Below, one piece after another: positions 52,472 through 52,666 of a stretch of 64,000 bases of DNA. The stretch comes from Candidatus Magasanikbacteria bacterium RIFCSPHIGHO2_01_FULL_33_34 (GTDB taxonomy: Bacteria; Patescibacteriota; Patescibacteriia; Magasanikbacterales; UBA922). Made by a program: the position numbers and the translations under genes. The stretch lies in assembly GCA_001782825.1 (NCBI GenBank), contig MFPS01000006.1, forward strand, positions 3,351-67,350, written 5' to 3'. How positions within the stretch are numbered: position 1 is the first letter of the stretch; each line of letters starts with the position of its first letter. The notes under the pieces were generated by a model. It saw only the letters and a list, made by a program, of their open reading frames with translations. It was not told the DNA's origin and did not search any database.

Positions 52472-52500
52472 TTGGCTATTTTTAGCTAATTTTTTATACT
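52472..52500 (+). promoter_or_regulatory. candidate promoter TTGGCT-N17-TATACT driving the candidate sRNA
   Basis: ttggct (52472-52477), a 17-nt spacer, then tatact (52495-52500). Confidence 0.4.
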
Positions 52501-52506
52501 TGACAC

Positions 52507-52666
52507 TACTCAATATTGATGAGAAACTATACAGACCCTCAATCAAAGAGTCTAGAATTGGCCATAGACACCGTGGGTTCGTCATAGAGATCGTGATACT
52601 GACAGGCATCGCGACCTCACACATGAGCGACACATGGAGTTTATAGCCAATTCTAGATTTTTTTTT
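52507..52666 (+). ncRNA. candidate small RNA of about 160 nt upstream of groES, ending in a long-stem terminator
   Basis: The segment is GC-elevated (ccgtgggttcgtcatagagatcgtgatactgacaggcatcgcgacctcac...). The 12-bp stem tctagaattggc (52551-52562) / gccaattctaga (52646-52657) is followed by T9. Only peptides of 22 aa or fewer can be read from it. Confidence 0.4.

What the first reader, a model, noticed from the sequence alone, without database searches (positions are those of the whole stretch)
52472..52666. Promoter-to-terminator unit encoding a GC-elevated RNA of about 160 nt immediately upstream of the groESL promoter
TTGGCT-N17-TATACT is followed by a 160-nt segment. The segment ends in a 12-bp perfect stem (tctagaattggc/gccaattctaga) with a large internal region, followed by T9. 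Its GC content is clearly above background. Only trivial peptides can be read from it. Its position next to the CIRCE-controlled groESL promoter suggests a stress-associated sRNA.
Basis: seen in the sequence. Interest (0 to 1): 0.55.

Follow-up and report, generated by a model that had tools for sequence, protein, structure and literature searches.

The report
Conserved hairpin small RNA beside groESL
Just upstream of the chaperonin genes, this uncultivated groundwater bacterium (Candidatus Magasanikbacteria) carries a real gene for a roughly 130-nucleotide rod-shaped RNA with its own promoter and terminator; the gene is conserved across its relatives, matches no described RNA family, and has no known function.

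Summary

- **Structure:** window 52546-52662 is the longest inverted repeat in the 64 kb. It folds into one imperfect rod (z = -7.8) that ends in T9.
- **Conservation:** 24 distinct homologues from Magasanikbacteria were found, 10 by GroEL synteny alone and the rest by a DNA pattern. All keep the rod: 39 pairs, 95-97% of cells paired, 23-24 pairs with compensatory double changes, and about 100 G·U against 6 A·C cells. This marks a plus-strand RNA.
- **Promoter and terminator:** all 24 keep TTGACA (TTGACT in one), exactly 17 nt, then a -10 box. In the window these are 52500-05 and 52523-28. The 22 aligned sequences all keep a T-run. The RNA is therefore about 130 nt, not 160.
- **Loop:** the apical loop GACAGGCAU is invariant.
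- **Other checks:** there is no convincing conserved ORF, no Rfam 15 match, one copy per locus, and no copy in viral contigs. The RNA is absent from groEL loci with GroEL identity of 68% or less.
- **Link to groESL:** usual, not obligatory.
- **Function:** unknown. Most likely a trans-acting RNA that uses its invariant loop. The stress link is unsupported.
- **Verdict:** a new, clade-restricted sRNA family of moderate interest.

The parts
52500..52505 (+). -35 box TTGACA of the RNA gene
   Evidence: Present as TTGACA (TTGACT in one) in all 24 homologues, always exactly 17 nt from a -10 box with A2/T6. Sequence read.
52520..52528 (+). Extended -10 region: TG (52520-21), A, then GAAACT (52523-28)
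   Evidence: Conserved position in all homologues; the -10 box varies as GAAACT, GATACT, TAAACT, TAAAAT or CATAAT.
52535..52666 (+). Predicted transcript of about 130 nt. The start is inferred from the -10 box; the end is the T-run.
   Evidence: Inference from the promoter geometry and the terminator. Covariance model R1 scores 121 bits on the plus strand against 52 bits on the minus strand.
52546..52662 (+). Rod-shaped hairpin: four helical segments (39 consensus pairs) separated by small internal loops. The basal helix pairs an A-tract with the start of the T-run.
   Evidence: MFE fold z = -7.8. RNAalifold consensus with 23 of 39 covarying pairs. Pair counts of 96.8% paired (22 sequences) and 95.4% paired (10 synteny-only sequences), against about 40% in slid controls.
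52601..52609 (+). Invariant apical-loop sequence GACAGGCAT, preceded by CT; 52599-52602 (CUGA) has the YUNR form in 22 of 24 homologues.
   Evidence: Invariant in all 24 homologues. This includes L038 and L039, which were found by the covariance model in loci fetched by GroEL similarity, not by the DNA pattern.
52658..52666 (+). T9 tract: with the basal helix it forms an intrinsic-terminator-like end
   Evidence: Four T columns are invariant in the 22-sequence alignment. Sequence read.
52472..52495 (+). Small hairpin TTGGCTA-tttt-TAGCTAA plus T6. This is the probable terminator of the upstream Wzy_C gene and is not part of the RNA gene.
   Evidence: Conserved as GGCTAA..TTAGCC or GGCTTA..TAAGCC plus a T-run in relatives, with compensatory swaps. 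Its function is inferred.
52440..52470 (+). Three tandem 9-mers at an 11-nt period: TAATCCCCA, CTATCCACT and TTATCCCCT. They may be a regulatory array upstream of the RNA promoter.
   Evidence: Repeats of this type are conserved upstream of the RNA promoter in most relatives. In relatives they fit the DnaA-box consensus TTATNCACA better and are enriched: 8.3 per kb against 1.1 per kb elsewhere in the same loci. The window's own copies each have 2 mismatches.

Best explanation
**Shown**
- The segment is a single-copy, orthologously conserved gene for a plus-strand non-coding RNA of about 130 nt in Candidatus Magasanikbacteria.
- The gene has a sigma-70-type promoter (TTGACA, 17 nt, extended -10).
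- It ends at an intrinsic-terminator-like structure. The hairpin of that structure is the basal helix of the RNA itself, formed by an A-tract, a GC-rich stem and a U-tract.
- The RNA folds into one long imperfect rod. Its helices are kept by compensatory changes, and its apical loop GACAGGCAU never changes.

**Inferred**
- The RNA acts in trans.
- The rod is a stable, nuclease-resistant scaffold that presents the invariant loop. In 22 of 24 homologues the loop is preceded by CU, giving a YUNR (U-turn-type) start like the recognition loops of antisense RNAs.
- The most likely mechanism is loop-initiated base pairing with a target RNA that contains AUGCCUGUC. That sequence would cover a start codon, so pairing would control translation or stability of the target.
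- The location next to groESL reflects inherited gene order, and possibly shared regulation. It does not reflect a cis mechanism.

**How likely**
- About 0.9 that this is a genuine expressed structured RNA gene.
- About 0.4 that it works by loop-mediated RNA-RNA pairing.
- The confidence given for this statement is for the combined statement.
For: - **Structure:** z = -7.8. RNAalifold finds 39 pairs, 23 with double compensatory changes.
- **Pair counts:** 96.8% of cells are paired against about 42% when partners are slid, with 0 of 500 shuffles reaching the observed covariation. The 10 sequences found only by GroEL synteny give the same result: 95.4% paired and 24 covarying pairs.
- **Strand:** about 100 G·U cells against 6 A·C cells. 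The model scores 121 bits on the plus strand and 52 on the minus strand.
- **Promoter:** the -35 box, the exact 17-nt spacer and the -10 box are present in 24 of 24 homologues.
- **Terminator:** the T-run is invariant in the 22-sequence alignment.
- **Loop:** GACAGGCAU is invariant even in L039, whose GroEL is only 75% identical and which was not selected by the DNA pattern.
- **Coding:** no ORF is conserved on either strand. The longest ORF in several homologues is 9 aa or less.
- **Copy number and spread:** one copy in the window, and none in 78 groEL loci of other bacteria. None in viral contigs.
- **Independence from neighbours:** L013/L028 have a different upstream gene, and L030 has a different downstream gene.
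Against: - No expression data are available; the transcript ends are inferred.
- No target was found. The loop complement ATGCCTGTCAG is not enriched in the 64-kb window (7 matches at up to 2 mismatches against 10.9 expected). No gene start in the window or in the Magasanikbacteria loci carries it, other than the minus-strand ORFs that lie within these elements themselves. Only a small part of any genome could be searched.
- Some conserved features point to a protein partner instead. Several base pairs never vary (C-G/G-C in helix 2, outside the region used for pattern retrieval), and rod length and internal-loop positions are conserved.
- The YUNR start is missing in 2 of 24 homologues (L015/L033 and L039).
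- Part of the apparent invariance around the loop in the 22-sequence alignment comes from how the sequences were retrieved, since 14 of them came from a pattern search.
Confidence: 0.45

Rival explanations
1. The same RNA gene, but it works as the RNA part of a ribonucleoprotein. It would be a lineage-specific protein-binding or sequestering RNA, functionally comparable to 6S, SRP, Y or CsrB-type RNAs. The protein would recognise the invariant loop together with the conserved internal loops of the rod.
For: - Rod length and the positions of internal loops and bulges are conserved across GroEL identities of 75-100%.
- Some base pairs never covary: C-G/G-C at alignment columns 47-48/98-99, which lie outside the pattern-selected region.
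- The 3' side of the helix 1 / helix 2 internal loop keeps conserved G residues.
- Reduced genomes tend to keep housekeeping RNP RNAs (general knowledge).
- No base-pairing target was found.
Against: - No candidate protein partner is linked to the RNA. Its neighbours change.
- No Rfam RNP family matches, even at E <= 10.
- There is no large central bubble as in 6S RNA, no GNRA tetraloop with AGCA loop as in SRP RNA, and no repeated GGA sites as in CsrB.
Confidence: 0.27
2. The element acts in cis on groESL. It would be an elaborate terminator or insulator that stops transcription from the Wzy_C gene or from its own promoter just before the groES promoter, possibly with regulated read-through that feeds groESL expression.
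For: - It lies in the same orientation upstream of groES in 10 of 10 synteny-sampled lineages and 15 of 17 pattern-sampled genomes.
- In short-spacer lineages the T-run ends roughly 15-45 nt before the groES -35 box.
- The A-tract / stem / U-tract geometry is that of an efficient terminator.
Against: - The upstream gene already has its own conserved small terminator hairpin (52472-52495).
- The element has its own conserved promoter, which an insulator does not need.
- The loop and the internal helices are conserved far beyond what termination requires.
- Unrelated inserts of several hundred bases separate it from the groES promoter in L007, L015/L033, L019 and L023.
- L030 has no groES downstream.
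- At -58 kcal/mol the rod is too stable to melt at physiological temperatures (inference).
Confidence: 0.1
3. A small protein is encoded on the minus strand. Its start codon is the ATG in the complement of the invariant loop (ATGCCTGTC = Met-Pro-Val). The plus-strand RNA could then be its cis-antisense regulator, an arrangement like the Sib/Ibs type I toxin-antitoxin loci.
For: - Every homologue has a minus-strand ORF that starts at ATGCCTGTC, 18-72 aa long. About 20 of 24 keep an in-frame 'MPVS(N/I)T...L.P(T/I)L' core.
- There are no stop codons in that frame over 21 codons in the 19 sequences examined.
- In my reading of the sequences, most codon changes between the window and L005 are synonymous.
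Against: - Pooled pN/pS is 0.54, which is within the range of the control frames and of the other arm (0.53-1.14).
- The reading frame is broken in L017, L038 and L034, yet the RNA structure is kept.
- Stop positions vary widely, and no Shine-Dalgarno sequence is conserved.
- The peptide is polar, unlike type I toxins.
- The 23-24 compensatory pairs and the G·U bias favour the plus strand, which coding on the minus strand cannot explain.
- The amino-acid 'conservation' is what nucleotide constraints from the RNA helix would produce anyway.
Confidence: 0.06
4. It is a DNA-level or mobile palindromic element (a MITE or REP-like repeat, a recombination site or a single-stranded-DNA hairpin), not an RNA gene.
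For: - It is a long inverted repeat in an intergenic region.
- A different palindromic repeat (element A) has inserted next to it in this genome.
Against: - There is a single copy in the window and one per locus in relatives, always at the orthologous site.
- It is conserved with compensatory changes over deep divergence.
- G·U pairs are tolerated on one strand only.
- The promoter and T-run are conserved.
- It is absent from viral contigs.
Confidence: 0.03

Closest known systems
Long-stem antisense or regulatory RNAs with a U-turn (YUNR) recognition loop, for example CopA of plasmid R1, Sok and RNA-OUT
   Same: - A long, bulge-interrupted hairpin presents a small single-stranded loop that begins with a YUNR-type sequence (CUGA here).
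- The loop is the most conserved part.
- It has its own promoter and ends at a U-tract.
   Different: - Those RNAs are cis-antisense to a known target encoded on the opposite strand of a plasmid, transposon or toxin locus. Here the gene is chromosomal and orthologous, no convincing opposite-strand gene exists, and no target is known.
- This is a resemblance in design only, recalled from general knowledge. It is not homology.
Bacterial small SRP RNA (4.5S RNA, Rfam RF00169)
   Same: - A single imperfect hairpin of about 115 nt with a highly conserved apex.
- An independent gene with its own promoter.
- One copy per genome.
   Different: - The apex lacks the GNRA tetraloop and the conserved symmetric and asymmetric loops (the AGCA motif) that bind Ffh.
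- The loop is a 14-nt UUACUGACAGGCAU.
- No SRP model hit was found, even at E <= 10.
6S RNA (Rfam RF00013 and relatives)
   Same: - A rod-like, highly structured and probably abundant RNA.
- It is driven by a near-consensus sigma-70 promoter.
   Different: - It is about 130 nt, not 150-200 nt.
- The largest internal loop is about 5 x 6 nt, so there is no open-promoter-like central bubble.
- No Rfam hit was found.
Sib/Ibs-type type I toxin-antitoxin loci
   Same: - An sRNA of about 130 nt fully overlaps a roughly 20-codon ORF on the opposite strand.
   Different: - The ORF here is polar and is not always in frame.
- It shows no clear purifying selection.
- The locus is single-copy and orthologous.

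Membership tests
Any described RNA family (Rfam 15, 4227 models) | A match to a family covariance model at its gathering score | tested here: not met
   The window scan at gathering scores returns only 3 tRNAs, none in this region. At E <= 10 on 52250-52810 the only hits on the element are spurious miRNA-precursor matches (25.8 bits against a 100-bit gathering score). In 18 homologous loci the only match at gathering score is one tRNA elsewhere in L031, and nothing lies on the element. The long form in L023 has no hit at E <= 10.
Bacterial small SRP RNA (4.5S) | A single hairpin of about 100-115 nt | tested here: met
   The rod spans 52546-52662, which is 117 nt.
Bacterial small SRP RNA (4.5S) | Helix 8 apex with a GNRA tetraloop plus conserved symmetric and asymmetric internal loops (5' AGG / 3' AGCA) that bind Ffh | tested here: not met
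   The alignment shows a 14-nt loop UUACUGACAGGCAU closed by a 7-bp stem, with no GNRA and no AGCA. RF00169 and RF01854 are not among the hits at E <= 10.
6S RNA | A large central bubble flanked by a closing stem and a terminal stem, in an RNA of about 150-200 nt | tested here: not met
   In the consensus structure the largest internal loops are 5 x 6 and 4 x 6 nt. The RNA is about 130 nt (long variants about 215 nt, with an extra 5' hairpin outside the rod). No RF00013 hit was found.
Independent sRNA gene (sigma-70 promoter plus intrinsic terminator) | A conserved -35/-10 promoter at a fixed spacing upstream of the structured part | tested here: met
   TTGACA (TTGACT in one), exactly 17 nt, then a -10 box with A2/T6, in 24 of 24 homologues.
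Independent sRNA gene (sigma-70 promoter plus intrinsic terminator) | A GC-rich helix followed directly by a U-tract | tested here: met
   A basal helix of 10 or more pairs is followed by a T-run that is invariant in the 22-sequence alignment. The simple terminator scan misses it only because that scan allows loops of 3-8 nt.
Independent sRNA gene (sigma-70 promoter plus intrinsic terminator) | A discrete transcript is detected | not testable with these tools
   No expression data are available.
Structured RNA (evolutionary criterion) | Base pairs maintained by compensatory substitutions on one strand | tested here: met
   23 of 39 pairs (22 sequences) and 24 of 39 pairs (10 synteny-only sequences) have double changes. 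0 of 500 shuffles reach the observed covariation, and slid controls are 34-46% paired. There are about 100 G·U cells against 6 A·C cells.
Protein-coding small gene | An ORF conserved in frame, with purifying selection and translation signals | tested here: not met
   There is no conserved plus-strand ORF. The minus-strand ORF that starts in the loop has pN/pS of 0.54, within the control range. Its frame is broken in 3 lineages, its stop positions vary, and it has no conserved Shine-Dalgarno sequence.
HrcA/CIRCE regulon member | A CIRCE inverted repeat (TTAGCACTC-N9-GAGTGCTAA) at the promoter | tested here: not met
   The CIRCE-like element (52750-52776) belongs to the separate groES promoter downstream. 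None lies at the RNA promoter in the window or in relatives.
MITE / REP-type repeat | Multiple dispersed copies per genome | tested here: not met
   The covariance model finds one copy in the 64-kb window, and blastn finds no second copy there. Each related locus examined holds one copy at the orthologous site. Whole genomes could not be scanned.

The most novel reading that the evidence does not exclude
The RNA is the RNA subunit of a previously unrecognised ribonucleoprotein that is specific to one Candidate Phyla Radiation (CPR) lineage. It might be a compact functional replacement for a housekeeping regulatory RNA, such as a 6S-like RNA polymerase regulator. Alternatively it might be an RNA whose expression is set by the DnaA-box-like array upstream of its promoter, which would tie cell-cycle or replication status to proteostasis genes.
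Probability: 0.15. Interest if true: 0.7.

Novelty: new member of a known kind. Interest (0 to 1): 0.45.

Why it matters
- Very little is known about RNA-based regulation in Candidate Phyla Radiation (Patescibacteria) bacteria. They have tiny genomes, few recognisable regulators and no known Hfq or ProQ-type RNA chaperones.
- This is a cleanly delimited RNA gene with strong covariation support, a conserved promoter and terminator, and an invariant loop. It is conserved across a whole lineage yet absent from Rfam, so it is a ready candidate for a new RNA family.
- The alignment and covariance model built here can be used to annotate it in metagenome-assembled genomes and to look for it in groundwater metatranscriptomes.
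- Its function is unknown and the organisms are uncultivated, so the near-term impact is modest.

Tried and rejected
- **Rfam identity:** rejected at both thresholds, for the window and for the homologues.
- **SRP and 6S RNA:** considered because of the shape and size. Rejected on their defining motifs.
rejected. It is a chance-level match and is not conserved.
- **Plus-strand 48-aa ORF and minus-strand 60-aa ORF:** not conserved. The minus-strand ORF that starts in the loop was examined in detail and judged a by-product of the RNA constraints.
- **Target search with the loop complement:** nothing above chance in the window or the loci.
- **Replication origin:** considered because of DnaA-box-like repeats and a 9%-GC stretch nearby. 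Rejected because cumulative GC skew falls monotonically across the window and no dnaA or dnaN gene was seen among the neighbours examined.
- **Phage or mobile origin:** no matches in viral contigs.
- **Metagenome scan by GroEL similarity:** returned mostly distant bacteria. It was useful only as a negative control and for two extra homologues, L038 and L039.
- **Thermosensor terminator:** judged unlikely from the -58 kcal/mol stability.
- **Literature searches:** six searches on Magasanikbacteria, CPR or Patescibacteria with ncRNA, 6S, SRP, sRNA, RNA-motif and groES terms found nothing relevant.

Full report
**Where the window comes from.** The GroEL encoded at 53111-54742 is identical to that of Candidatus Magasanikbacteria bacterium RIFCSPHIGHO2_01_FULL_33_34. 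The window matches contig MFPW01000009.1 of GCA_001782875.1, a metagenome-assembled genome, over the locus examined. The window is 33% GC.

**Layout of the intergenic region.**
- The Wzy_C-family gene ends at 52294.
- A GC-rich palindromic insert, 'element A', lies at 52333-52437.
- Three tandem 9-mers lie at 52440-52470.
- A small hairpin plus T6 lies at 52472-52495.
- The finding follows.
- The groES promoter is TTGACT-N16-TAAAAT at 52711-52738.
- A CIRCE-like palindrome, TTATCACTC-N9-GAGTGATAA, lies at 52750-52776.
- groES is at 52801-53091, followed by groEL.

**Checking the observation.**
- The 12-bp perfect stem (52551-52562 / 52646-52657) and T9 (52658-52666) are there.
- The inverted repeat is the longest in the whole window, with 41-nt arms.
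- The plus strand folds into one continuous imperfect rod, 52546-52662, at -58.1 kcal/mol. Shuffles average -30.0 (z = -7.8; 0 of 200 as good). So the 'large internal region' is helix, not loop.
- GC reaches 0.46-0.49 against 0.14-0.29 in the flanks.
The same 2-kb region holds 9 such matches against 8.8 expected from shuffles.

**Relatives.**
- I looked up contigs that encode GroEL proteins 79-91% identical to the window's.
- Every lineage has a homologue of the element in the same orientation upstream of groES. This includes L013, where the upstream gene is different and lies on the other strand.
- A degenerate pattern built from these sequences found 19 places among 185,579 species genomes. 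Seventeen are homologous loci that share this gene neighbourhood; about half are labelled Magasanikbacteria and the rest carry generic labels such as 'uncultured Gammaproteobacteria'. Two are chance hits elsewhere.
- Of the 17, 15 have groES downstream on the same strand. In one the locus ends too soon to tell. One (L030) has a giant ORF downstream instead.
- A covariance model built from 22 sequences found one copy in the window (121 bits on the plus strand, 52 on the minus strand). It also found homologues in two loci fetched by GroEL similarity, L038 (82% identity) and L039 (75%).
- It found nothing in 78 other groEL loci. These include L040 and L042 (67-68% identity), which keep the Wzy_C-groES gene order but have no such RNA.
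- The family is therefore confined to a Magasanikbacteria-level clade. It is absent from viral contigs.

**It is a structured RNA on the plus strand.**
- RNAalifold on the MAFFT alignment gives 39 pairs in four helical segments. Twenty-three pairs show at least one double compensatory change.
- Pair counting on that alignment gives 96.8% of cells paired, against 36-45% when partners are slid by 1-3 columns. There are 116 cells with double changes against 32 ± 5 in shuffles (0 of 500).
- Fourteen of the 22 sequences came from a pattern that fixes part of the apex, so I repeated the count on the 10 sequences obtained only through GroEL. The result was 95.4% paired and 24 covarying pairs, with all measures at 0 of 500. 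That alignment is fitted to the model, but it agrees with the MAFFT result.
- G·U cells outnumber A·C cells by about 100 to 6. Pairing is therefore selected on the plus strand, which argues for RNA and against a DNA palindrome.

**Promoter and terminator.**
- All 24 homologues have TTGACA (one TTGACT), exactly 17 nt, then a -10 box with A2/T6, often preceded by TG. In the window these are 52500-52505 and 52523-52528.
That hairpin is most simply the terminator of the Wzy_C gene.
- The transcript should start near 52535 and end in the T-run, giving about 130 nt.
- Sixteen homologues have this short form. Eight have the promoter about 40-120 nt further upstream, most of them with an extra 5' hairpin of the form CCAAC-UUURGG-GUUGG.
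- The basal helix pairs a conserved A-tract with the first U residues, and four T columns are invariant in the alignment. The rod is therefore its own terminator hairpin.

**Conserved sequence.**
- The apical loop contains GACAGGCAU in all 24 homologues. These include L038 and L039, which were not chosen by the pattern.
- In 22 of 24 it is preceded by CU, giving a YUNR-type start.
- Outside the pattern-selected region, two adjacent pairs in helix 2 (C-G, G-C) never vary, and the 3' side of the helix 1 / helix 2 internal loop keeps its G residues.

**Not coding.**
- No plus-strand or minus-strand ORF is conserved within the element. In several homologues the longest ORF is 9 aa or less.
- The complement of the invariant loop is ATGCCTGTC, so every homologue has a minus-strand ORF starting there (18-72 aa). 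About 20 of 24 share an in-frame 'MPVS..L.PTL' core.
- I tested this reading. Pooled pN/pS is 0.54, no better than the control frames or the other arm (0.53-1.14).
- The frame is broken in L017, L038 and L034 while the RNA structure persists. Stop positions vary, no Shine-Dalgarno sequence is conserved, and the peptide is polar.
- I keep it as a low-probability rival.

**Not a described family.**
- Rfam 15 gives nothing at gathering scores in the window apart from three tRNAs. In 18 homologous loci it gives only one tRNA, elsewhere in L031.
- At E <= 10 the only hits on the element are spurious miRNA-precursor matches, and the long form has no hit at all.
- The shape invites comparison with 4.5S/SRP RNA and 6S RNA. 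The SRP apex motifs and the 6S central bubble are both absent.
- Six literature searches found no description.

**How it probably works.**
- Shown: an orthologous, single-copy unit from promoter to terminator that encodes a rod-shaped RNA with an invariant loop.
- Inferred: it acts in trans through that loop.
- I favour loop-initiated base pairing (about 0.4). The design matches known antisense recognition hairpins: a long bulged stem with a small invariant single-stranded loop of U-turn type.
- The predicted target sequence AUGCCUGUC would span a start codon. I found no such target in the 64 kb or in about 200 kb of related loci, but that is a small fraction of any genome.
- A protein-binding role (about 0.27) is nearly as good. 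It is favoured by the invariant base pairs and the fixed rod geometry.
- A cis role at groESL (about 0.1) is weakened by several facts: the element has its own promoter; the upstream gene has its own terminator; inserts of several hundred bases separate the element from the groES promoter in several lineages; and L030 has no groES downstream.
- The 'stress' label has no support beyond position. The RNA promoter has no CIRCE.

**Novelty and interest.** This is a new, clade-restricted sRNA family in a phylum whose RNA biology is almost unexplored, and the comparative support for it is unusually clean. It is not a new kind of system and its function is unknown, so interest is moderate.

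Noticed in passing
window 52333-52437 and window 6842-6944: 'Element A' is a second, unrelated palindromic element with two copies in the window.
- A long AT-rich outer stem differs in sequence between the copies but pairs in both.
- It encloses a GC-rich core that is 90% identical between the copies (CGGATTTGATGYC.CAACAGRCATCACCCTCGGAGCC..AGCGAGAATGAG).
- The inner hairpin shows a compensatory change (GATGCC/GGCATC to GATGTC/GACATC).
- The plus strand folds better (z = -5.9 against -2.0).
- One copy sits between the Wzy_C gene and the RNA gene. The other sits between the clpP promoter and the clpP start.
- Relatives lack it at both sites (their DHH-clpP spacers are 19-155 nt), so it looks like a species-specific inserted repeat.
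- It has no Rfam hit and no viral hit.
   Followed up: partly
window 52440-52470; upstream of the RNA promoter in L005-L037: Two or three tandem 9-mers of TATCC(A/C)C type lie in one orientation at an 11-nt period.
- In relatives many fit the DnaA-box consensus TTATNCACA with at most 1 mismatch, for example TTATGCACA in L023.
- They occur at 8.3 per kb in the 130 nt upstream of the -35 box, against 1.1 per kb elsewhere in the same loci.
- The window's own copies each have 2 mismatches.
- GC skew shows no origin here.
- They could be a DnaA-box cluster or another regulator's site controlling the RNA promoter.
   Followed up: partly
window 52750-52776: The groES operator is a CIRCE variant, TTATCACTC-N9-GAGTGATAA, with T/A in place of the canonical G/C at one position of each arm. 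The variant is shared by most relatives examined, while the more distant L042 has a near-canonical TTAGCACTT-N9-GAGTGCTAA.
   Followed up: partly
L019, L021, L023 (about 677-893), L024, L026, L032, L033, L034: Eight relatives carry a long form of the RNA, about 215 nt in L023. The promoter lies about 40-120 nt further upstream, and most have an extra 5' domain that contains a conserved hairpin, CCAAC-UUURGG-GUUGG. The covariation of that domain was not analysed.
   Followed up: partly
L007 2040-2600; also L015/L033, L019 and L023 between the RNA and the groES promoter: The spacer between the RNA terminator and the groES promoter is a hot spot for lineage-specific inserts of several hundred bases.
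- The L007 insert has its own TTGACA..TATACT promoter and a tRNA-like 3' end (TGGTGGA...GGTTCAACTCCCC...TCCACCA).
- Rfam gives only weak tRNA-like-domain hits there (Tymo_tRNA-like 20.5 bits; tmRNA 17.3 bits, E = 5e-5).
- ARAGORN calls nothing.
   Followed up: partly
L030 2593 onward: In Magasanikbacteria GW2011_GWC2_37_14 the RNA gene follows Wzy_C as usual, but a very long ORF (open to the end of the locus, more than 1,800 codons) follows it where groES would be.
   Followed up: no
window 52609 (minus strand) and the homologous position in all relatives: The complement of the invariant loop is ATGCCTGTC. Every homologue therefore opens a minus-strand ORF 'MPVS...' of 18-72 aa. It was judged a by-product of the RNA constraints, but this is not fully excluded.
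   Followed up: yes
window 20536-25449 and 25459-35139 (minus strand); window 10964-14047: Two adjacent giant ORFs of 1,637 and 3,226 aa lie on the minus strand. Three tRNA-Ser genes (anticodons ACT as called by ARAGORN, GCT and TGA) lie within about 3 kb of each other. The ACT call is unusual and was not checked.
   Followed up: no
L003 and L004 (near-identical contigs from other samples): Two independent assemblies of the same organism break at window positions of about 52330 and about 52486. These are the edge of element A and a point just upstream of the RNA promoter. The breaks suggest that repeats or strain variation disturb assembly here.
   Followed up: no
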